Source: a phage
Length of the DNA: 64,000 bases
Sequence record: PZ386957.1
Reading direction: 5' to 3' (one strand)
Made by a program: the position numbers and the translations under genes
Part shown: one piece after another, positions 2,962 to 41,767 of the stretch
Layout: each line of letters begins with the position of its first letter
Numbering within the stretch: position 1 is the stretch's first letter
The notes under the pieces: model-generated
The model's database searches: none
What the model was told of the DNA's origin: nothing
What the model saw: only the letters and a program-made list of their open reading frames with translations

Positions 2962-5900
2962 ATGGCAGATTTACTAAGTCAACATTTTAAGGCCACATTT
3001 GGCTTTGATGCTGGTAATGAAAAGGTCGTCAATGTAGCATTGGCTGATAAGAACACTCTCACCGATGCCGTTAACGTTGAATTTTTCAATTACCATAACG
3101 GTATTACGCAGTATGACACAACTCGCGGTTATGATCAATACGGTACTGCAATTTATCAAAACCGTCCTTACTATGCAAAGGAAAACATCGCGAAGCCAGC
3201 GGGAGAATTTGATCCGACTAAATGGCAAGCACTGCGTACTGATCCGCGTTGGGATTACATTGCAGCGACTTCCGGCGATACTCCCCTAAAGTCTGGTGAT
3301 TATATCGCTGCGGATTGCCAATTTGCAAACTTAACATTCTCCATGCCTACTAAGCCAGCCGAAGGCGATACTATAACAGTAAAAGATATCGGTGGCAAGT
3401 GCGGTGTAAACGAATTGTCGTTCCTCGCATCTGGTCATGAGTTCTATCATAATGGCACAGTATACAATAGAAAATGGTATTGCACAACTCCTTATTCGAT
3501 GATGTATTTCATCTTTGCTCGTGGACGTTGGCATGTATACCAGACTGGAACAGAGCCGCGCGGGGTATATGCACAGCCAGCTATTGATCCAATCCAGATG
3601 CAAAACGGAGATCAGGTATTCCGTCGCAGTTCATTAGGTAATATTGTATTGAAATTACCTAAGTTTGCAAATAACGGTGATATCATCAATACCACGGACC
3701 TGGATGGATTGACCGCAACAAATCACGTTACCATCAAGACACACGAAGGAGCGCCGGACCATTCTATTGGTGCAGTCGGTGTAAAAGAGATTGTAGGCAA
3801 ACGTAGTGGTCACGGTGTATTCATCTTTGATATTACTGAAAACTTATGGCGTGTTTGGGATGGTGATCAGTCTGTACGCTTAACGCCTATCGCATCGGAT
3901 ACCCGCTTGCTGCCTAACACGTATGTCGCTGTATTCGGTGATCGCAATGTCACTTTAACATTGCCTACTAACGTAGAGATCGGGGATCGTATTCAGGTCG
4001 CATTACAATACATGCACGGTACACAAACTTGCAAGATTGTAACGTCTGGGGCAGATACCAAAATTTTAATGCAGAAAAACATGCTGCAATTCCCTAAACG
4101 CAGCGAATATCCGTTTAATGGATCTGATACGTGGAAGGAAGTAACAGAGTTATCTTTCAGTGCTGCAACTGATTATGTTCCGTATCTGGAGTTCTCTTAT
4201 TCAGAAGGTGATGACGGTAAAAAACACTGGTTAGTAGCACATGCTCATCCTATCGTAGAACGGGTAGATCCGACTCGTAAAGATCGTGTGGGTGTAATTG
4301 CGCTGGCTACTCAAGACGAAACCAATAAAAACCATGAGCAGAATCCGAGCGACGAAGTAGCTGTTACCCCTCGTGTGTTGGCTAATAAAACCGCAACCGA
4401 AACACGACGCGGTATTGCAAGAATTGCTACGCAAGCAGAAACGCATCAAAATACTGGTTCTAACTTCCTTGATGATGTTATCGTTACACCTAAAAAATTA
4501 AATGATTGTGTTGCTACTGAATCACGTCGTGGTGTGCTGGAAATTGCAACGCAAGCAGAGACTAACGAAGGTTTAGACGATACCCGCGCTATTACTCCTA
4601 AGAAATTAGAAGAACGTCGCGCGAGTGAAACGTTGGCAGGGATTGCGGAAATTATTACGGCTGGCGGTAACGCTGCGGCAGTTCGTGGTCAAGCTGGTTC
4701 CGGTATCTACGATATCAATGACCATGCTAAAATCGTTACTCCCCATAACCTGAATGAAGTTAAAGCGACAGAAACATCTCGCGGTGTAGGTTATCTGGCA
4801 ACTGACGCAGAAGTACAGGGAGCGACCGAAGCAACACCGCAAGATGCATTGTTAATCACTACCCGTACTTTGACTAAGCGTATTGCAACAGAAACGCGCA
4901 CGGGGATCGCGGAAATCGCTACTCAAGCAGAAACCAATCAGGGGCAGCTTGATACCCATATTGTTACGCCGTTAAAACTCAATAACCGTCGTGCAACCGA
5001 AACGCTACATGGTCTAGCAGAAATCGCAACTCAGGTTGAATTTGACACAGGTCGAGATGATGCTCGCATTTCTACCCCATTGAAGATTAAAACCTTCTTT
5101 GAGAATGCACAGCGTTTGAAAGTAGATCCTACTCAGGGGCTTAACCTTACTGGCGATTTGTGGCAAGGTATTACTATTCGCGGTCTGGATGCTGACGAAG
5201 CAACTAAAGGCGTTGCTAAAGTCGCTACTGTCCAGTTAACCGACGCTGGTACTGATGATACCACAATCATTACGCCGAAGAAATTACAAGGTAAAAAAGC
5301 CACTGAAGTTAAAGAAGGTATTATTCGTGTTGGTACTCAAGCCGAAACCGTAGCAGGTATACTGGATGATGTGGCAGTATCGCCGAAGAACTTCAAATAT
5401 GTTGTTCAGGTTGATGACACATGGAAAGCAACGGAAGCGCGTCGCGGTTTTCTGAAAGTATCTACAAAAGAAAACTGTTTTGTTGGTAATGACCTTGCTG
5501 GTTCCACTCAAGCAATTGATCAATATCTGCATGATGGAATCGCAGTTACCCCGCGTGGTTTAAACTATGCACTGGCTAACTTCTTACCTAAAATGGCAAC
5601 CGCTCAGAATAGTTTGAAATTAGGCAACGTAGAAGCCGCTAAATGGGCGCGTAGAGACGTTGATCAGACTATCGAGGCCAATTACACGTTTAAGAAAAAT
5701 ATCAACGTGGAGGGTGATTTAGAGTGCTTAAAATCAGGTACGTTTGAAACACTGTATGTAACCAAAAATTCAACTGACGAGGCGAGCACCGGAAATCTGG
5801 TATTAGGTATCCGTGGTCAAAATGGTCATACCGGAATTGCATTGCATGGCACAACCGGAGATATTGAGAACTCATGGGCTATGCTCGTAGGCGGTACTGG

Positions 5901-6725: not shown

Positions 6726-7865
6726 ATGTCAGAAGAAATCGAATTGCGCAATACAGGAATTAAATTTGCACATTTTGATCAAGATTCCGTAACATTTAAC
6801 AGCATATCAGAAAACAACTCTGTGATGTATAAGCTGGAAGTGCGCGGATCTAATAGTGATTCGACTAAACCAGCAAGGATCAGATTCAATGGCGTAGAGA
6901 TTACTGGCACTGGCTATCAAGTCGGTTTGAATTTTAAAGTGTTGACTCCAACCGGACAACTCCACGAAGAAAAGATATTCTATGGACGTGGTGCAGCCTT
7001 AGCAATGCGCGATTATCTCAATACCCTGAAAGGGGATTATATCATCGCAATGGCCTCGCATGGTAAATTGACACCTGATCCAGTAAATGATGAAATATTC
7101 AATCGATTAGGATCAGTATCATATCCAAATCATATTCTATTACAACAAATGCCGCAAGTTAGTTATGCAGCAATCTATTCTACTAAAATGGGTAAAGTCG
7201 TTTGTGAAGGTATGCAAGCATCACACGGAGAAGGGCAAGATTCATCTATACAAATAGAGAAAGTCTATGATACAATAGATGATTTGGCAATTACCGGAAT
7301 CCCTCAACGATTCTTAGATTATCCAGTGGAATATGTTAGCGAAGACGCAGAACACTTTGAATTAGTACAATGGCCTAAAAACGAAATATCCGCGCCTATG
7401 ACAGACTTTAATATCAAGGCAGGAGATAAGCTATCTATTTCATTTGAGCTATTCAGAGATGATGCAGCGGCTTCTGCTGGCGTGACCGCAAGGTTCTTCC
7501 ACAATTATTTTCTGGAAGGAACTTATAAAACTGGTGTACGTTACAATGCAACAAAACGCGATCAGTGGGAAAGGTTTGATGCGGTGTATACTGTACCGGA
7601 AGGAGTTGATAGTGTAGTAACTGGCTGTATCCGGTATCCAACTAACTCCAGTGAAGGGATTGTTAAGGTGCGCAATATTCTGATTACCCAGATTAGCGGA
7701 GTAGTCAAAACCGATGGTCCTACTTCCTTTGGTGTTAACGGTGTTAGAACTACAAGCATTCAAGATAACGGTGACTTCACTAATCCGGTTATGAGTCTGC
7801 TTAAATTACCGCGAGACAACAAACATCTTACTTCCAATAACTTTAAAGAATTTGATGTTGATTAA
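6726..7865 (+). CDS. 35: gp35 tail fibre hinge protein
   Basis: 379 aa ORF between 34 and 36, T4 gp35 size and position. Confidence 0.7.
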   Translation: MSEEIELRNTGIKFAHFDQDSVTFNSISENNSVMYKLEVRGSNSDSTKPARIRFNGVEITGTGYQVGLNFKVLTPTGQLHEEKIFYGRGAALAMRDYLNTLKGDYIIAMASHGKLTPDPVNDEIFNRLGSVSYPNHILLQQMPQVSYAAIYSTKMGKVVCEGMQASHGEGQDSSIQIEKVYDTIDDLAITGIPQRFLDYPVEYVSEDAEHFELVQWPKNEISAPMTDFNIKAGDKLSISFELFRDDAAASAGVTARFFHNYFLEGTYKTGVRYNATKRDQWERFDAVYTVPEGVDSVVTGCIRYPTNSSEGIVKVRNILITQISGVVKTDGPTSFGVNGVRTTSIQDNGDFTNPVMSLLKLPRDNKHLTSNNFKEFDVD

Positions 7866-37940: not shown

Positions 37941-39380
37941 TTAAATGTCAAACAGGTCCGTAAGCGATGCCACTTTTTCATATTGCAGCTTTGCAGCCGT
38001 GGTAATGTTCTCCAGTGGTTTGACGAAAGTCTTATTGAACAACAAAGACCAGTCCAACCACTTTAACACCTCTGATTCAATTTCTGGAGGAATACGAGTA
38101 CCAGACAACCAACCAAAACAGATTTCTCCAAACGGATTTCGATCTTTGAGCGGTACGATCATAACTTTCTCGCCCTCACGAATCGGATCTAGTCCAAATT
38201 TTCGAGCATTACGATTATAACACAATACGCTCTTAACCGCATACGGACAGCCCTTAATCGGATACCCGTTTGAATCGCTGTATTTCTGTAGGTTGTTTGC
38301 AGATGATACCGCAGCAACCTCAAGATAGTCAAGTTTTCTAAATTCTTGCTCAAAAATACCGTAGTATTCCTGCAATGACTCTTCACCTTCCTGCAACATA
38401 CGACGAATACATTCTTTCAGTGATTTCTGACATGCTTTAGGTGTAGAACTACGTTGCGTTTCTAAGCCCATGATTTTTAGCTTAGGTTCAGCAAAGCGAG
38501 TTCCTTCCATATCCCAAACATTAAGAGCATAACGCTTTTTACCAGTCCAGAATCCACCGATACCCGCAGATTTCAACGGAGGACCAGCAATTGCCTCACG
38601 GTCCATAAACATCAAGTGCTCATAGTTGTTCATGTACTCGCATAACTCGCGATATCCCTTGTCGATAATAGGTTCCATTCGATGTTTACCGAAATTATCA
38701 AGGAAGTCAACAAGTTTTTCGGTATCGTCGAAACGGTCTTCCCCACCAACCTTATCAACAACATTGTTAACCAGCACATAAACGGAGTCAGTATCACAAT
38801 AACGAACATATGCAAAATCGGTTGTTCCGCAAAGTTCGTTTAAGTATTCGTTAATCTTACGCTCAATCCACTGAATTGCAAGCTGACCGAACAAAGTGAT
38901 CGCACTAGCATTACGCAGATCATACAAACGAAATTTCGGATTTCCTACATATTTTCAATGAGTCGCGCAACCAACTCACCCGCCGTTAGGCTGCTGCATA
39001 TCGCTATGCAGATAAGACTATATCACCTATCAACCGAAGTCAATAGCCCACCATTTCGAGCGCCATTAGCTTGCACCCTACACCGTTACACTCATCACGG
39101 TTAGTCGTTAGGCATTTACAGCATTATAGCTGATTTAGCACGGGATTGTCAACCAGTCCGTATACGTTGATATTCCCCGTTTAGATGGGTTTAAGGTGCG
39201 CTAGGATGTTTACGCACCATAAAGGCTGTTAATCAATACCTTTCGTGAAAGTTGGTTTGTGTTACATAGAATAGACTCGTCTTGACATATCGCTAGATGC
39301 CGTTCTAATTCCTCGATTGGTAACGAATCAAGATAGGCCAATTCTTCATCGGTGAAGTCTTTACGATGATCTATATTCAT
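37941..39380 (-). CDS. 43: DNA polymerase subunit 43B (motifs B and C), interrupted by a group I intron; exon 1 39380..39212, exon 2 38947..37941
   Basis: Exon 1 from ATG 39380 encodes MNIDHRKDF...CNTNQLSRKVLINSLYGA (motif B); spliced to exon 2 gives YGA-LGNPKFRLYDLRNAS...YCDTDSVYV (motif C). Track ORF 37941..38927 is the exon 2 part. Confidence 0.8.
38948..39211 (-). ncRNA. group I self-splicing intron (td-like, subgroup IA2-type core), ORF-less, 264 nt
   Basis: Minus strand has ACGGGGAA, GACAATCCCGTGCTAAAT, TAAATGCCTAACGACTA, TAGGGTGCAAG, CTCGAAA, GATATAGTCT, CTGCAT...ATGCAG as in the T4 td intron; P1 pairs exon GGUGCGU with GCGCACC (U.G at splice site); ends in G. Confidence 0.8.
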
Positions 39381-40198
39381 GATATATCTTTCTCCTTAAG
39401 CCGACAATTGTTAAAATGCCAGCGTTTTAAAGACTGTGCAACTCCAGATTTACCGCAATGTGGACATACAGCAATAATTTTCTTGCTTTCTTCCCAGCGT
39501 TTCTTTGCGGCTTCTTTCATCTTTTCTTTAGAGTCGTCAGACATTTTCTTACCTTTCATGCCCTTAACGCAATCTGGATTTTCTGCTATTCTAGCAAGCA
39601 TTCTTTGTCTTTGCAACTCTTTTTTCTCGTCGCTCCACCCTGCGGATATTTTATCACGTTCTTCCTGTGATAGCGTCTTACCAACTTGTTTGTGTGGATT
39701 TTTAGAATAATATTCTTTTAATCCTTTAGCGATCTTTGCCTTTGTATCATCAGAGTGAGATTTGTCAATATCTTTGTTGCTATTATACTTCTCGATGTTT
39801 CTTTTTGAAACGGCATCATAAAATTCTTTGTTTGACTTTCTCGTCTTTTTGATACCGTTAGAAACTTTGACAGCAATTACCGGATTTTTCATCGGGTTAT
39901 TGTCGCCGGAAGTGTCGATGTGATAGAAGCCACCGACACCGCCTAACGTGATGTTATATGTATCAGACCGCTTTAGAAAGTCTTCGTTTACGATCTCGGC
40001 CTCTTTGTCATAAGCGTCTTTCTCGTTATCATATTCAAACAGAATATCTTTATGGAAGTTTTCGACCCCATACTTCGCGATAGCTCGTTTGATATGAATA
40101 CCGCTACCCATATATGAATCATCTGGGTCGTCGGTCTTGTGTACACCAACATAGATCATATTGTTTATCTTATTTGTGATCCGATACACATAATACAT
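39377..40198 (-). CDS. GIY-YIG homing endonuclease (Seg-like), free-standing between 43A and 43B
   Basis: 273 aa; N-terminal YYVYRITNKINNMIYVGVHKT...YMGSG GIY-YIG motif, basic C-terminal region with CPHCG zinc finger; ATG overlaps 43A stop (TAATG), stop overlaps 43B ATG (ATGA). Confidence 0.85.
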   Translation of the reverse strand: MYYVYRITNKINNMIYVGVHKTDDPDDSYMGSGIHIKRAIAKYGVENFHKDILFEYDNEKDAYDKEAEIVNEDFLKRSDTYNITLGGVGGFYHIDTSGDNNPMKNPVIAVKVSNGIKKTRKSNKEFYDAVSKRNIEKYNSNKDIDKSHSDDTKAKIAKGLKEYYSKNPHKQVGKTLSQEERDKISAGWSDEKKELQRQRMLARIAENPDCVKGMKGKKMSDDSKEKMKEAAKKRWEESKKIIAVCPHCGKSGVAQSLKRWHFNNCRLKEKDIS

Positions 40199-41715
40199 TA
40201 TTCACCTCGTCGTTTCTTTAACATCTCCTTAATCTTTTCAGCATTACGGTCACACGCCAACATCATGTTTTTGTACTGTTTACGCTGGTCGAACACCTTT
40301 TTGATTTCAATCGGTACTACACCCTGAATATCTTTTCGATACATCCAACCGTTAGGAGAACATGAGTATTCATCGCTAGGCCGTTCCGCTGTTTTATTAA
40401 TATAGTCGATCATTGGCGCGGTGTCAAATGATCCAGCTATAGTTTCCGGCGAAATGTTAACCTGTCGGATGATAGACGGATACAGACTTGTTAAGTCAAA
40501 GCTCATCATCCAACGGTAAGCATTAGGTACTGGTTCTTTTACAAAAGCACCTGGATACGTCTGCTTAGGCTGTATCTTATTTTCCGGTACTACTTTACCC
40601 TCAGCTTTCAGAGATCCGAAGATAATAGCATCCCATACCTTCATCGGGTTATACACATGGTTAAATTTAATCTTTGCATAGTAGCATAGACTATACACAA
40701 GATCGATAAATCCGCGCTTTTTATCAATCGCCAATACACGATCAACGTCGCCGATGTTATAATCGATGTAAAGTTGATGGTTGTCATCACGCAATTTCTT
40801 TAACGGACCATCATAATCAACCTTACCGATTCCTGTCTCATATTCAGCAACATAATCTAATGCATATGTTGGTTGAGTCGTAAAGCTGAATTTCTTGTAC
40901 AGGTCAATGTAATCAAGGCTTTCGATCCCCATGATCGTAAATGCTTCACGCTCGTTGCCAAAATCATCCTGTGAGATTCGGGATTTAATCTTACCGCACG
41001 GGCTTAATCGGTTTGCCGTTCGACTTCCAAACTTATTACTGATACGCTTAATGATATACGGGATATCGAATGTTTCTGTGTTCCAGCCAGTGAAACCAAC
41101 TGGTCGATTTTCCTCAAAGAATCGGATGTATTCTAACAGCAATTCATCTTCCGTATCGTAGACGTTATAAACAACACGCTCTACTATATCAGGTCGAAGA
41201 ATAGACTTTCTTGCTTCCCATATTTCACCGTTTTTGCCTTTCAAATCAAAGACAAAGAAACGATCATGTACGGAATCATAATGCGTAATTGCATCAATAG
41301 GATATTTTGCTTCTTCTGGCTTCGGGAATTCCGGCGCAGTAACCTCAATATCAACCCATGCTACACGGATTTTATTTCGGTCATATCGAATCTCACCCTT
41401 GTATGTGTCGGATAGATAGGAGATGATAAAATCATCCATTCCTAACGCCTCTTGCCCCATCTCTCCCATCTTTTTACGCCATTTGTTGGCCTCGTTCATA
41501 GATGGGAATTTTTTAGCAATGCAAGGCTTGCCATAGATATCTTTATAATTAGTAACCATACCAGGCGCGGCATGATGAAATAAAGTTGGCGTATACTCAA
41601 CGTAACGCTCTTGTTCTTGTCCGGTATCATCAATATAACGCTCGTAGATCTTATCACCTACTCTCTCACATGACAGAAAATACATAATATAAACTCCTTC
41701 ACTTACGAAAGACAC
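40198..41715 (-). CDS. 43: DNA polymerase subunit 43A (3'-5' exonuclease domain and polymerase motif A)
   Basis: 505 aa; exo motifs (VAWVDIEV, YNIGDVD) and motif A SFDLTSLYPSII; ends ~60 residues before motif B relative to remembered T4 gp43. Confidence 0.88.
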   Translation of the reverse strand: MSFVSEGVYIMYFLSCERVGDKIYERYIDDTGQEQERYVEYTPTLFHHAAPGMVTNYKDIYGKPCIAKKFPSMNEANKWRKKMGEMGQEALGMDDFIISYLSDTYKGEIRYDRNKIRVAWVDIEVTAPEFPKPEEAKYPIDAITHYDSVHDRFFVFDLKGKNGEIWEARKSILRPDIVERVVYNVYDTEDELLLEYIRFFEENRPVGFTGWNTETFDIPYIIKRISNKFGSRTANRLSPCGKIKSRISQDDFGNEREAFTIMGIESLDYIDLYKKFSFTTQPTYALDYVAEYETGIGKVDYDGPLKKLRDDNHQLYIDYNIGDVDRVLAIDKKRGFIDLVYSLCYYAKIKFNHVYNPMKVWDAIIFGSLKAEGKVVPENKIQPKQTYPGAFVKEPVPNAYRWMMSFDLTSLYPSIIRQVNISPETIAGSFDTAPMIDYINKTAERPSDEYSCSPNGWMYRKDIQGVVPIEIKKVFDQRKQYKNMMLACDRNAEKIKEMLKKRRGE

Positions 41716-41767
41716 TCATTATAGGGGAATCGACTTAGTTTGTCAATACCCCTATCCCATCAGTATC

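What the first reader, a model, noticed from the sequence alone, without database searches (positions are those of the whole stretch)
39377..40198. DNA polymerase gene split into 43A and 43B by a free-standing GIY-YIG endonuclease gene
The family B polymerase is encoded as two cistrons: 43A (exonuclease domain and motif A) and 43B (motifs B and C). They are separated by a GIY-YIG endonuclease ORF whose ATG overlaps the 43A stop (TAATG) and whose stop overlaps the 43B ATG (ATGA). The junctions are translationally coupled, so the polymerase is probably a two-subunit enzyme, unlike T4 gp43 which is a single chain.
Basis: partly seen in the sequence, partly recalled or inferred. Interest (0 to 1): 0.75.

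Follow-up and report, generated by a model that had tools for sequence, protein, structure and literature searches.

The report
Split phage polymerase: endonuclease plus intron

Summary
On the minus strand, 43A (41685..40198, 495 aa) ends in TAA, which overlaps the ATG of a 273-aa GIY-YIG ORF (40198..39377). That ORF's TGA overlaps the ATG of 43B (39380).

The 43B frame stops after 56 codons, inside motif B (…NSLYGA). A 264-nt group I intron (39211..38948) must be spliced out to restore …LYGA-LGN… and reach motif C.

Splice-site pairings, a terminal G and strong covariation support the intron. The Rfam score is below that family's threshold.

The layout 43A | free-standing GIY-YIG endonuclease | short 43B exon | ORF-less intron | 43B exon 2 is the one described for Aeromonas phage 25. 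It is also present in phiAS4 and coliphage G2285.

The window is about 94% identical to 59 Krischvirus isolates, and none of them has the insert. Six metagenome contigs carry the same cassette at 89% identity.

Differences from phage 25:
- There is no intercistronic spacer.
- The intron belongs to another lineage, closest to the T-even nrdD intron.

Verdict: a new member of a known kind, of moderate interest.

In passing: relatives of this endonuclease are often paired with 5-11-nt inserts containing a stop codon at the same motif-B site. These look like ribosomal hop sites.

The parts
41718..41746 (-). Promoter-like site upstream of 43A (TTGACA-17-TATAAT, 12 of 12). It probably drives early transcription of 43A, the endonuclease and 43B.
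   Evidence: RB49 has an annotated early promoter at the equivalent position upstream of gene 43.
40198..41685 (-). Cistron 43A: 495 aa plus TAA. It holds the N-terminal, 3'-5' exonuclease and palm motif A parts and the first fingers helix of the family B polymerase.
   Evidence: ATG 41685 behind AAGGAG. Residues 1-489 are 97% identical to RB49 gp43 1-489. Pfam DNA_pol_B_exo1 and DNA_pol_B.
39377..40198 (-). Free-standing GIY-YIG (Seg-like) homing endonuclease gene, 273 aa. Its ATG overlaps the 43A stop (TAATG) and its TGA overlaps the 43B ATG (ATGA).
   Evidence: Pfam GIY-YIG 26.1 bits against a cut-off of 22.6, NUMOD3 weak. PHROG homing endonuclease E 1e-46. 37-47% identical to the endonucleases in the same position in phage 25, phiAS4, Aes508 and G2285. 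dN/dS is 0.096 against the 86%-identical copy in L005. Y5, Y16, E66, N82 and a C-terminal CPHC…H…C motif are conserved in 11 homologues.
39212..39380 (-). 43B exon 1 (169 nt). It codes for an imported N-terminal fingertip segment plus motif B up to …KVLINSLYGA and the first base of the Leu codon.
   Evidence: Residues 1-33 resemble the 43B N-termini of the other cassettes (G2285 14 of 33, phage 25 12 of 33) more than native RB49 (9 of 33).
38948..39211 (-). ORF-less group I (IA2-type) intron, 264 nt. The 5' splice site follows U39212 (P1 GGUGCGU/GCGCACC with a U·G pair). P10 is UAGGA/UCCUA. The terminal G is G38948. P7.1 and P7.2 are present.
   Evidence: Rfam RF00028 37.9 bits, E 2.8e-7, below the gathering score of 50. 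The MFE fold recovers P1, P3-P6, P7.1, P7.2, P8, P9, P9.1 and P9.2. Covariation: 96.7% of cells paired, 23 of 66 pairs changed on both sides, slid controls 35-44% and 2-4 pairs. Splicing restores …LYGALGNPKFRLYDLRNA…, colinear with RB49. 92.8% identical to the L005 copy although flanking dS is 0.6-1.0.
37941..38947 (-). 43B exon 2 including the stop: the rest of the fingers, palm motif C (YCDTDS) and the thumb.
   Evidence: Spliced 43B residues 2-391 are 94% identical to RB49 gp43 503-892.
38887..40245 (-). Tract that looks imported relative to RB49-type genomes: the last ~45 nt of 43A, the endonuclease, exon 1, the intron and ~60 nt of exon 2. It may extend upstream to about 40485.
   Evidence: All 59-70 Krischvirus records align in two pieces and skip this tract. 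Sliding identity to RB49 is 0.95-0.99, then 0.81-0.84 (CDS nt 1201-1400), then 0.63 and 0.42 around the split, then 0.82, and 0.94-1.00 from CDS nt 1683.
39123..39152 (-). Perfect sigma-70 consensus (TTGACA-18-TATAAT) inside the intron, spanning P5'/P4' to the P6a loop. Its function is unknown.
   Evidence: TTGACA-17-TATAAT is kept in the L005-type intron, read from the sequences.

Best explanation
The region is a composite mobile cassette that has entered gene 43 of an RB49-like (Krischvirus) coliphage.

Components:
- A free-standing GIY-YIG homing endonuclease gene sits in the DNA that codes for the tip of the polymerase fingers domain. It divides the gene into 43A and 43B.

Proposed expression (inferred):
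- 43A, the endonuclease and 43B are transcribed together from the early promoter upstream of 43A.
- Each cistron is translated from its own Shine-Dalgarno sequence, helped by the overlapping stop and start codons.
- The intron removes itself from the mRNA, which restores the 43B frame.
- gp43A (495 aa) and gp43B (391 aa) assemble into a two-subunit polymerase.

Proposed spread (inferred by analogy with phage 25 and the collaborative-homing model):
- In a mixed infection, the endonuclease cuts the intron-less motif-B region of gene 43 in a related phage.
- Repair from the cassette-bearing genome copies the endonuclease, the intron and the flanking polymerase codons.
- The intron breaks up the target sequence in the carrier genome and so protects it from its own enzyme.

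Shown here: the anatomy, the homologies, the conserved intron fold, purifying selection on the endonuclease, and the foreign-looking tract. Inferred: splicing, cleavage specificity, subunit assembly and homing.
For: Anatomy and overlaps.

Break position:
- 43A plus spliced 43B are colinear with single-chain RB49 gp43 (886 against 892 aa). The only divergent patch is at RB49 residues ~483-535.
- This maps to RB69 gp43 ~508-514 at the fingertip.

Intron:
- Rfam E 2.8e-7.
- P1 with U·G, P10 and the terminal G are visible in the sequence.
- Canonical helices appear in the MFE fold.
- 23 of 66 pairs show double changes and 96.7% of cells are paired, against 35-44% in slid controls.
- P1 covaries with the exon in phiAS4: GGAGCUU/GAGCUCC.

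Endonuclease:
- Pfam and PHROGs hits.
- Conserved motif residues.
- dN/dS 0.096.

Same layout elsewhere, with a homologous endonuclease and an intron after the same nucleotide:
- Phage 25, annotated as split by a group IA2 intron.
- phiAS4.
- G2285.
- Sequence-level comparison.

Literature:
- The phage 25 endonuclease and intron are treated as collaborative homing, and its 43A and 43B co-purify with polymerase activity (PMC2988022; PMC2993671; PMC3984707).
- Fingertip splits are tolerated (PMC3061061).

Lateral acquisition:
- 59-70 Krischvirus isolates at ~94% identity lack the insert.
- There is a divergence tract around it.
- The 43B N-terminus is cassette-like and not RB49-like.

Support for motif B as the target: in other lineages, genomes with a homologue of this endonuclease have the same site disrupted by another intron lineage or by 5-11-nt inserts.
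Against: - No experiment was done on this phage. Splicing, cleavage and subunit assembly are all inferred.
- The Rfam score (37.9 bits) is below the family's gathering score of 50.
- The endonuclease is only 37-47% identical to the characterised phage 25 enzyme, so its target could differ.
- Contigs L011-L014 carry a 56%-identical endonuclease with an uninterrupted 43B. An intron at motif B is therefore not obligatory for carrying such a gene. Their site does read CTC instead of TTA/TTG.
- The 5' edge of the imported tract is not sharp.
- No late promoter or RBS-sequestering hairpin of the kind that restrains other T4-type endonucleases was found. How the enzyme is regulated is unclear.
Confidence: 0.85

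Rival explanations
1. The endonuclease and the intron are two independent, unrelated insertions. The endonuclease homes to its own insertion point in the fingertip-coding DNA (intronless homing). The intron is an old passenger that spreads only by linkage.
For: L011-L014 and L086 have an endonuclease of this family but no 43B intron. L098 and L115 keep a motif-B insert without any endonuclease. The window's intron is a different lineage from the phage 25 intron. The pairing is therefore loose.
Against: In every lineage examined, the endonuclease sits ~170 nt from a disrupted or recoded motif-B site. This holds for two intron lineages and four kinds of mini-insert. The reviews treat phage 25's endonuclease and ORF-less intron as collaborative homing, in which the endonuclease target is the intron-insertion site. 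The foreign tract spans both elements.
Confidence: 0.1
2. The endonuclease is no longer mobile. It is kept because it benefits the phage, for example by excluding the genomes of co-infecting relatives, or because its reading frame now supplies the ribosome-binding site and coupling needed to express 43B.
For: Strong purifying selection, dN/dS 0.096. The 43B Shine-Dalgarno sequence lies inside the 3' end of the endonuclease gene, and the stop/start overlap NTGA recurs in distant relatives L086, L087 and L015.
Against: This does not exclude homing. Marker exclusion is what homing looks like from the recipient's side. The patchy distribution argues for ongoing mobility: the cassette is absent from 59 isolates and present in a few metagenome lineages.
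Confidence: 0.04
3. The interruption is an artefact or a dead gene: a mis-assembly, a pseudogenised polymerase, or an endonuclease ORF that lies inside one large intron or an intein.
For: None beyond the unusual look of the locus.
Against: Six independent contigs share the layout. Both polymerase halves are under strong purifying selection, dN/dS 0.04. The 56-aa exon carries essential motif B and has to be translated. No intron hit spans the endonuclease. No Hint or intein domain was found, and the endonuclease is in a different frame with its own start and stop.
Confidence: 0.01

Closest known systems
Aeromonas phage 25 gene 43 cassette: seg43(25) GIY-YIG endonuclease plus Intron 25.g43B (Petrov, Ratnayaka & Karam 2010, as cited in PMC2988022 and PMC2993671). 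The same layout occurs in phiAS4 and related Aeromonas phages (Aes508, Aes120, Aes512, Aes002 carry the homologous endonuclease).
   Same: The order is 43A | free-standing GIY-YIG endonuclease | ~56-aa 43B exon ending …NSLYGA | ORF-less group I intron | 43B exon 2. The break is at the fingertip. The intron follows the same nucleotide, the first base of the Leu codon after LYGA. The endonucleases are homologous over their full length.
   Different: The endonucleases are only 37-43% identical. The window has no ~45-nt intercistronic spacer or hairpin, and its 43A stop overlaps the endonuclease ATG. The introns share only a 33-nt P7'/P9 stretch, so they belong to different lineages. The host genus is Krischvirus on E. 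coli, not Tulanevirus on Aeromonas.
Escherichia phage vB_EcoM_G2285 (Mosigvirus, MK327933), whose gene 43 is annotated 'unable to determine intron/exon boundaries'
   Same: It has the closest endonuclease in any isolate (46.7% identity). It shows the same three-part layout and intron site in a coliphage.
   Different: It has a spacer with a hairpin before the endonuclease. Its intron is of the phage 25/phiAS4 lineage (RF00028 83.6 bits). It belongs to a different genus.
Metagenome contigs L005-L010 (ENA ERZ27235410 k99_539 and Logan runs)
   Same: The same cassette, colinear at 88-89% nucleotide identity. The endonuclease is 86% identical at the protein level, the intron is 92.8% identical, and the TAATG and ATGA overlaps are the same.
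   Different: The backbone is more distant (83-89%). L005 has in addition a 1.1-kb group I intron with a 274-aa ORF in motif A of 43A.
T-even nrdD (sunY) group I intron, as in Escherichia phage HY03
   Same: It is the closest relative of the window's intron core: 75% identity over 166 nt covering P6 to P9, with compensatory changes in P3, P6a, P7.2, P8 and P9.
   Different: It sits in a different host gene and has a different guide sequence. It carries a 256-aa ORF (I-TevII by recollection) after P9, whereas the window's intron has no ORF.
Other genes-in-pieces made by free-standing endonucleases: mobE in Aeh1 nrdA, and mobA plus the 50-nt bypass in T4 genes 39/60
   Same: An endonuclease gene splits an essential replication or nucleotide-metabolism gene, the halves reassemble as subunits, and a nearby insertion is thought to protect the carrier from cleavage.
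   Different: Those endonucleases are HNH-type, and the genes are different. The protecting element in gene 60 is a translationally bypassed gap, not an intron.

Membership tests
GIY-YIG (Seg-like) free-standing homing endonuclease | GIY-YIG catalytic domain | tested here: met
   Pfam PF01541 scores 26.1 bits against a cut-off of 22.6, over residues 1-72. Y5, Y16, E66 and N82 are invariant in 11 homologues. No PDB relative is detectable by sequence.
GIY-YIG (Seg-like) free-standing homing endonuclease | C-terminal DNA-binding modules (NUMOD3 or zinc-finger-like) | tested here: inconclusive
   NUMOD3 scores 17.3 bits, below its cut-off of 20.4. A CPHC…H…C motif is conserved in homologues.
GIY-YIG (Seg-like) free-standing homing endonuclease | Own ORF outside any intron or intein, absent from close relatives of the host genome | tested here: met
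   It has separate start and stop codons and its own Shine-Dalgarno sequence. No intron hit covers it. It is absent from 59-70 Krischvirus records.
GIY-YIG (Seg-like) free-standing homing endonuclease | Site-specific double-strand cleavage of the endonuclease-lacking allele, and biased inheritance | not testable with these tools
   This needs enzyme assays and phage crosses.
Group I intron (subgroup IA2) | Match to the Rfam RF00028 covariance model at the gathering score | tested here: not met
   37.9 bits against a gathering score of 50, with E 2.8e-7 in a 4.1-kb search. No hit at gathering in the whole window. The phage 25, phiAS4 and G2285 introns score 64-84 bits.
Group I intron (subgroup IA2) | P1 with a U·G pair at the 5' splice site, P10, a terminal G, and exon ligation that restores the reading frame | tested here: met
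   P1 is GGUGCGU/GCGCACC with U39212·G. P10 is UAGGA/UCCUA. The terminal G is G38948. The spliced frame gives …LYGALGNPKF…, colinear with RB49.
Group I intron (subgroup IA2) | Conserved P3-P9 core, including the P3/P7 pseudoknot and the P7.1/P7.2 extension, supported by covariation | tested here: met
   66 pairs in 12 helices: 96.7% paired, 23 pairs with double changes, 0 of 500 shuffles as good, slid controls 35-44%. P7 itself is invariant.
Group I intron (subgroup IA2) | Self-splicing in vitro or in vivo | not testable with these tools
   This needs RT-PCR and GTP-dependent splicing assays.
Split gp43 of the phage 25/44RR type | Break in the fingertip between the two fingers helices, with 43A and 43B colinear with single-chain gp43 | tested here: met
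   (RB69 ~508-514). The 43B N-termini align in register with phage 25, phiAS4 and G2285.
Split gp43 of the phage 25/44RR type | Intercistronic untranslated sequence (IC-UTS) after 43A | tested here: not met
   The 43A stop overlaps the endonuclease ATG. Phage 25, phiAS4 and G2285 have a spacer (about 45 nt in phage 25 and G2285) with a hairpin.
Split gp43 of the phage 25/44RR type | The two products form an active polymerase | not testable with these tools
   Reported for phage 25 (PMC2988022). Not tested for this phage.
Collaborative (trans) homing cassette | The endonuclease target coincides with the insertion site of a neighbouring ORF-less intron | not testable with these tools
   Indirect support only. 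The motif-B site is disrupted or recoded in all endonuclease-bearing lineages seen.
Collaborative (trans) homing cassette | Endonuclease, intron and flanking exon sequence are inherited as one tract | tested here: met
   A divergent tract at ~40245 (perhaps 40485) to 38887 spans both elements in an otherwise 93-99% RB49-like gene. The 43B N-terminus is cassette-like.

The most novel reading that the evidence does not exclude
The window's intron may be only one of several interchangeable 'target breakers' that travel with this endonuclease family.

At the same few nucleotides of motif B, different T4-like lineages carry different things:
- the phage 25-type intron;
- an unrelated nrdD-like intron (the window);
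- a tiny insert of 5, 9, 10 or 11 nt.

Each tiny insert has the same pattern. A take-off codon (GGU, or GCG in L015) is followed at once by a stop codon, and a matching landing codon restores the polymerase frame. If ribosomes hop over these inserts, they would be new natural cases of programmed translational bypass, created by the same arms race that placed the intron in this window. An E. coli phage carrying the cassette would make collaborative homing and split-polymerase assembly directly testable in a standard host.
Probability: 0.35. Interest if true: 0.7.

Novelty: new member of a known kind. Interest (0 to 1): 0.35.

Why it matters
The phenomenon itself is established. It consists of a fingertip-split gp43, a free-standing GIY-YIG endonuclease and a neighbouring ORF-less intron that spread together.

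This instance adds three things:
- **A tractable host.** The cassette sits in an RB49-like phage of E. coli, where crosses with dozens of cassette-free isolates at ~94% identity are easy. Cleavage specificity, co-conversion and the assembly of the two polymerase subunits could be measured directly.
- **Loose pairing of endonuclease and intron.** Homologous endonucleases at the same position are paired with introns of different lineages. This fits the idea that the enzyme's target site selects for any insertion that breaks it.
- **A more compact layout.** There is no intercistronic spacer, hairpin or late promoter. That raises the question of how expression of a potentially toxic nuclease is restrained.

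Tried and rejected
- **One large intron containing the endonuclease, or an intein.** Rejected. The only intron hit is downstream, the 56-aa exon carries motif B, and no Hint domain was found.
- **RBS-sequestering hairpins or late promoters controlling the endonuclease, as for I-TevI, segB and mobE.** Folds around both junctions are no better than shuffles, with z-scores of -0.12 and -0.70. There is no TATAAATA in or near gene 43.
- **PDB sequence search with the endonuclease.** Nothing significant.
- **Finding the window's own source.** The exact endonuclease protein is not in the contig index. No phage record covers 80% or more of the locus.
- **Exact-pattern scans for the window-type intron.** No hits in JGI metagenomes or IMG/VR. 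The covariation test therefore relied on the L005-type copy plus related nrdD-type and phiA047 introns.
- **IMG/VR search with the endonuclease protein.** No close relative; the best was 46%.
- **Petrov et al. 2010.** The paper is not held in the library. Its content is cited through reviews.
- **The JSE-type gene 43 intron mentioned in PMC2993671.** A motif-A intron with an HNH ORF, probably that type (JSE itself was not examined), is present in at least 12 Krischvirus isolates. It is not in this window.
- **Sliding identity for the intron.** The value of 0.51 was an indel-shift artefact. BLAST gives 92.8%.
Full report
**What is there.** All genes in this part of the window are on the minus strand.
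- The ORF listing shows a 505-aa ORF at 41715..40198 and a 273-aa ORF at exactly 40198..39377.
- It also shows a 56-aa ORF at 39380..39210 and a 328-aa ORF at 38927..37941.
- The sequence shows TAATG at 40200..40196, where the 43A stop overlaps the endonuclease start. GAGGTG lies just upstream.
- It shows ATGA at 39380..39377, where the endonuclease stop overlaps the next start. AAGGAG lies upstream.
- The real 43A start is ATG 41685 behind AAGGAG, which gives 495 aa.
- Pfam finds DNA_pol_B_exo1 plus the first part of DNA_pol_B in 43A, and GIY-YIG above its cut-off in the middle ORF. It finds the next part of DNA_pol_B in the downstream protein.
- PHROGs calls the middle ORF a homing endonuclease at E 1e-46.

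The ORF that starts at the ATGA ends after 56 codons, at …KVLINSLYGA, which is in the middle of polymerase motif B. The homologous sequence resumes about 260 nt later.
- Rfam finds a group I intron at 39213..38994, at 37.9 bits and E 2.8e-7. This is below the family's gathering score of 50.
- Reading the sequence gives a 264-nt intron at 39211..38948.
- The 5' splice site follows U39212. Exon GGUGCGU pairs with intron GCGCACC, which forms P1 with the canonical U·G pair.
- The adjacent UCCUA pairs with the first exon-2 bases UAGGA, which forms P10. The intron ends in G38948.
- Joining the exons gives …LYGA-LGNPKFRLYDLRNA… and a 391-aa 43B.
- The minimum-energy fold recovers P1, P3-P6, P7.1, P7.2, P8, P9, P9.1 and P9.2.

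I tested covariation on an alignment of five introns. They were the window's, the L005-type copy, an Aeromonas phiA047 intron and two nrdD introns.
- 96.7% of cells pair, and 23 of 66 pairs show changes on both sides.
- No shuffle out of 500 does as well.
- Sliding the partners drops pairing to 35-44% and double changes to 2-4 pairs.

I therefore treat the intron as real, although its Rfam score is below threshold.

**Relation to the unsplit polymerase.**
- 43A residues 1-489 are 97% identical to RB49 gp43 1-489.
- Spliced 43B residues 2-391 are 94% identical to RB49 503-892.
- The two products total 886 aa, against 892 aa for the single chain.
- Only RB49 residues ~483-535 are replaced by divergent sequence.
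- Against RB69 gp43 structures, the break falls at about residues 508-514. From established knowledge of the RB69 structure, this is the loop at the tip of the two-helix fingers domain.
- PMC3061061 records natural splits in this fingertip in T4-like phages 133, 44RR, 31, 25 and 65. It also shows that an engineered fingertip split of Pfu polymerase is fully active, and it calls AUGA an ideal sequence for coupled translation.
- PMC2988022 reports that phage 25's 43A and 43B products co-purify and have polymerase activity.

A two-subunit enzyme is therefore the best reading for the window. It remains an inference for this phage.

**It is a known kind of element.** tblastn with the endonuclease finds its best relatives (37-47% identity over the full length) inside the polymerase genes of other phages. 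These are coliphage vB_EcoM_G2285 and Aeromonas phages Aes120, phiAS4, Aes508, Aes512, 25 and Aes002.
- The phage 25 record annotates 43A, a GIY-YIG endonuclease, and a 43B 'split by group IA2 intron'.
- phiAS4 and G2285 have the same order.
- Rfam detects their introns at 64-84 bits.
- In all of them the intron follows the same nucleotide, the first base of the Leu codon after LYGA.
- In phiAS4 the exon reads GGAGCUU and the guide sequence reads GAGCUCC. This is a set of compensatory changes in P1.

The reviews describe the phage 25 intron as lacking its own endonuclease. They predict that it is mobilised by the free-standing one, and they treat the pair as an example of collaborative homing.

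**Where the window comes from, and how the cassette got there.**
- A 24-kb stretch of the window is 93-94% identical to 59 Krischvirus (RB49-like) records.
- Across gene 43, every one of them aligns in two pieces that skip the insert.
- None has a close copy of the endonuclease.
- Identity to RB49 runs at 0.95-0.99 over most of 43A and falls to 0.81-0.84 from about CDS nt 1200.
- It falls to 0.63 and then 0.42 around the split, and is 0.82 across the exon flanking the intron.
- It returns to 0.94-1.00 about 60 nt after the intron.
- The first 33 residues of 43B resemble the 43B N-termini of G2285 and phage 25 more than the native RB49 sequence. The scores are 81 and 66 against 36.

This is the pattern expected if one tract was imported by recombination from a divergent donor. 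That tract would run from about 40245 (perhaps 40485) to 38887 and hold the fingertip codons, the endonuclease, exon 1, the intron and a short co-converted stretch.

**The same cassette elsewhere.** The protein database holds an 86%-identical endonuclease (P0001) on metagenome contigs L005-L010.
- These contigs are colinear with the window from 40483 to 37600 at 88-89% identity, with the same overlaps.
- Between the window and L005, the endonuclease has dN/dS 0.096 at dS 0.78, so it is under strong purifying selection.
- The intron is 92.8% identical although neighbouring synonymous sites are close to saturation.

**How this instance differs from phage 25.**
- There is no intercistronic spacer. 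Phage 25, phiAS4 and G2285 have a spacer (about 45 nt in phage 25 and G2285) with a hairpin before the endonuclease. L087, L015 and L094 have a TATAAATA late promoter there.
- The window has neither feature, no TATAAATA anywhere near, and no significant hairpin at either junction. The endonuclease seems to be expressed with the polymerase from the early promoter-like site at 41746..41718.
- The intron belongs to another lineage. It shares only a 33-nt P7'/P9 segment with the phage 25-type introns.
- It is 75% identical over 166 nt to the nrdD intron of T-even phages, with compensatory changes in P3, P6a, P7.2, P8 and P9.

Homologous endonucleases at the same place are therefore paired with different introns at the same nucleotide.

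**Mechanism.** The steps below are inferred, and none was tested.
- Early transcription covers 43A, the endonuclease and 43B.
- Each cistron is translated from its own Shine-Dalgarno sequence, helped by the overlaps.
- The intron self-splices.
- gp43A and gp43B assemble.
- In mixed infection, the endonuclease cuts intron-less gene 43 near motif B, and repair copies the whole tract.
- The intron protects the carrier by interrupting the target.

The main rival is that the two elements are independent. It draws some support from L011-L014 and L086, which have the endonuclease but no 43B intron. However, L011-L014 read CTC at the site instead of TTA/TTG, and the L086 endonuclease is frameshifted.

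**Side observation: mini-inserts at the same site.** While collecting relatives, I found that many T4-like contigs with a homologue of this endonuclease between 43A and 43B carry no intron at the motif-B site. They carry a very short insert with an in-frame stop instead:

| Locus | Sequence at the site | Take-off to landing | Stop |
|---|---|---|---|
| L018, L019 | GGT TAG GT AAY | GGU to GGU, +5 | UAG |
| L087 | GGT TAG CTA GGT AAC | GGU to GGU, +9 | UAG |
| L028 | GGT TAA GTT A GGT AAT | GGU to GGU, +10 | UAA |
| L015 | GCG TGA CCC GG GCT AAC | GCG to GCU, +11 | UGA |

- A pattern scan for the +5 form found 14 JGI metagenome and 16 IMG/VR contigs.
- They give 14 distinct, strongly diverged polymerase contexts. 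In each, both the upstream frame and the shifted downstream frame are conserved.
- Where the upstream DNA is available, nearly all have 43A, the endonuclease homologue and 43B in order.
- L098 and L115 keep the insert in an unsplit gene with no endonuclease.

Each case has a take-off codon, a stop directly after it, and a matching landing codon. That is the pattern of T4 gene 60 bypassing and of the short 'stop-hops' seen with synthetic constructs. The 2016 recoding review lists only gene 60, Magnusiomyces mitochondria and possibly a Streptomyces phage as natural bypass cases. The 2022 preprint on gene 60 homologues does not mention the polymerase.

This is not in the window and is not proven. 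It does support the view that motif-B DNA is this endonuclease family's target, and it deserves its own follow-up.

**Verdict.** The split and the likely two-subunit enzyme are right. The intron, the composite mobile nature of the element and its prior description were missed. This is a new member, in Krischvirus, of the phage 25-type gene 43 cassette. It has a compact junction and an intron of a different lineage. Interest is moderate.

Noticed in passing
L018 ~4304-4326; L019; L028 ~460-490; L087 ~4403-4440; L015 ~4400-4440; L094-L123 (site positions): The window has its intron at one motif-B site (LYGA-LG|N). Many T4-like contigs have a 5-, 9-, 10- or 11-nt insert at that site. Each insert has a take-off codon (GGU, or GCG in L015), an immediate stop codon and a matching landing codon. 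After the landing codon the conserved gp43 frame resumes. The +5 form GGT-TAG-GT-AAY occurs in 14 diverged polymerase contexts. These are candidate programmed ribosomal hops, not described in the literature I could search.
   Followed up: partly
L098 ~6990-7260 and L115: The polymerase gene is continuous here, with no endonuclease and no 43A/43B split, yet it still carries the +5 stop-containing insert in motif B. Either the endonuclease was lost and the halves re-fused, or the insert exists independently as protection.
   Followed up: partly
window 39123-39152 (minus strand): A perfect 12-of-12 sigma-70 consensus (TTGACA-18-TATAAT) lies inside the ORF-less intron. It is as good as the two early promoters that flank gene 43. 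It is kept as TTGACA-17-TATAAT in the L005-type intron. No ORF follows it within the intron, and its purpose is unknown.
   Followed up: partly
L005 2590-3716; L011 3450-3717; L012 601-819; equivalent to window ~40483-40495: Relatives carry a second group I intron in 43A at motif A (DLTSLYPS). It is ORF-less in L011 and L012, and 1.1 kb with a 274-aa ORF in L005. The ORF-bearing form is 98-100% identical in at least 12 Krischvirus isolates (ELT4, JEP8, kvi, ECD7, Cognac and others), where the ORF is annotated HNH endonuclease or hypothetical. The window lacks it.
   Followed up: partly
L011-L014 (endonuclease at L011 4001-4669, 43B at 4666-5841): A shorter relative of the endonuclease (222 aa, 56% identical) splits gene 43 with the same TAATG and ATGA-type overlaps, but 43B has no intron. 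The Leu codon at the site is CTC instead of TTA/TTG. That removes the U needed for a 5' splice site and may alter the endonuclease target.
   Followed up: partly
window ~40245-40485: Identity to RB49 drops from 0.95-0.99 to 0.81-0.84 about 285 nt upstream of the endonuclease. The drop starts at the position where relatives have the motif-A intron. The imported tract may therefore begin at motif A.
   Followed up: no
L086 3501-4310: The endonuclease homologue appears frameshifted. Its conserved CPHC…WHF.NC C-terminus continues in another frame past the called stop. The final TGA overlaps a TTG start of an uninterrupted 43B.
   Followed up: no
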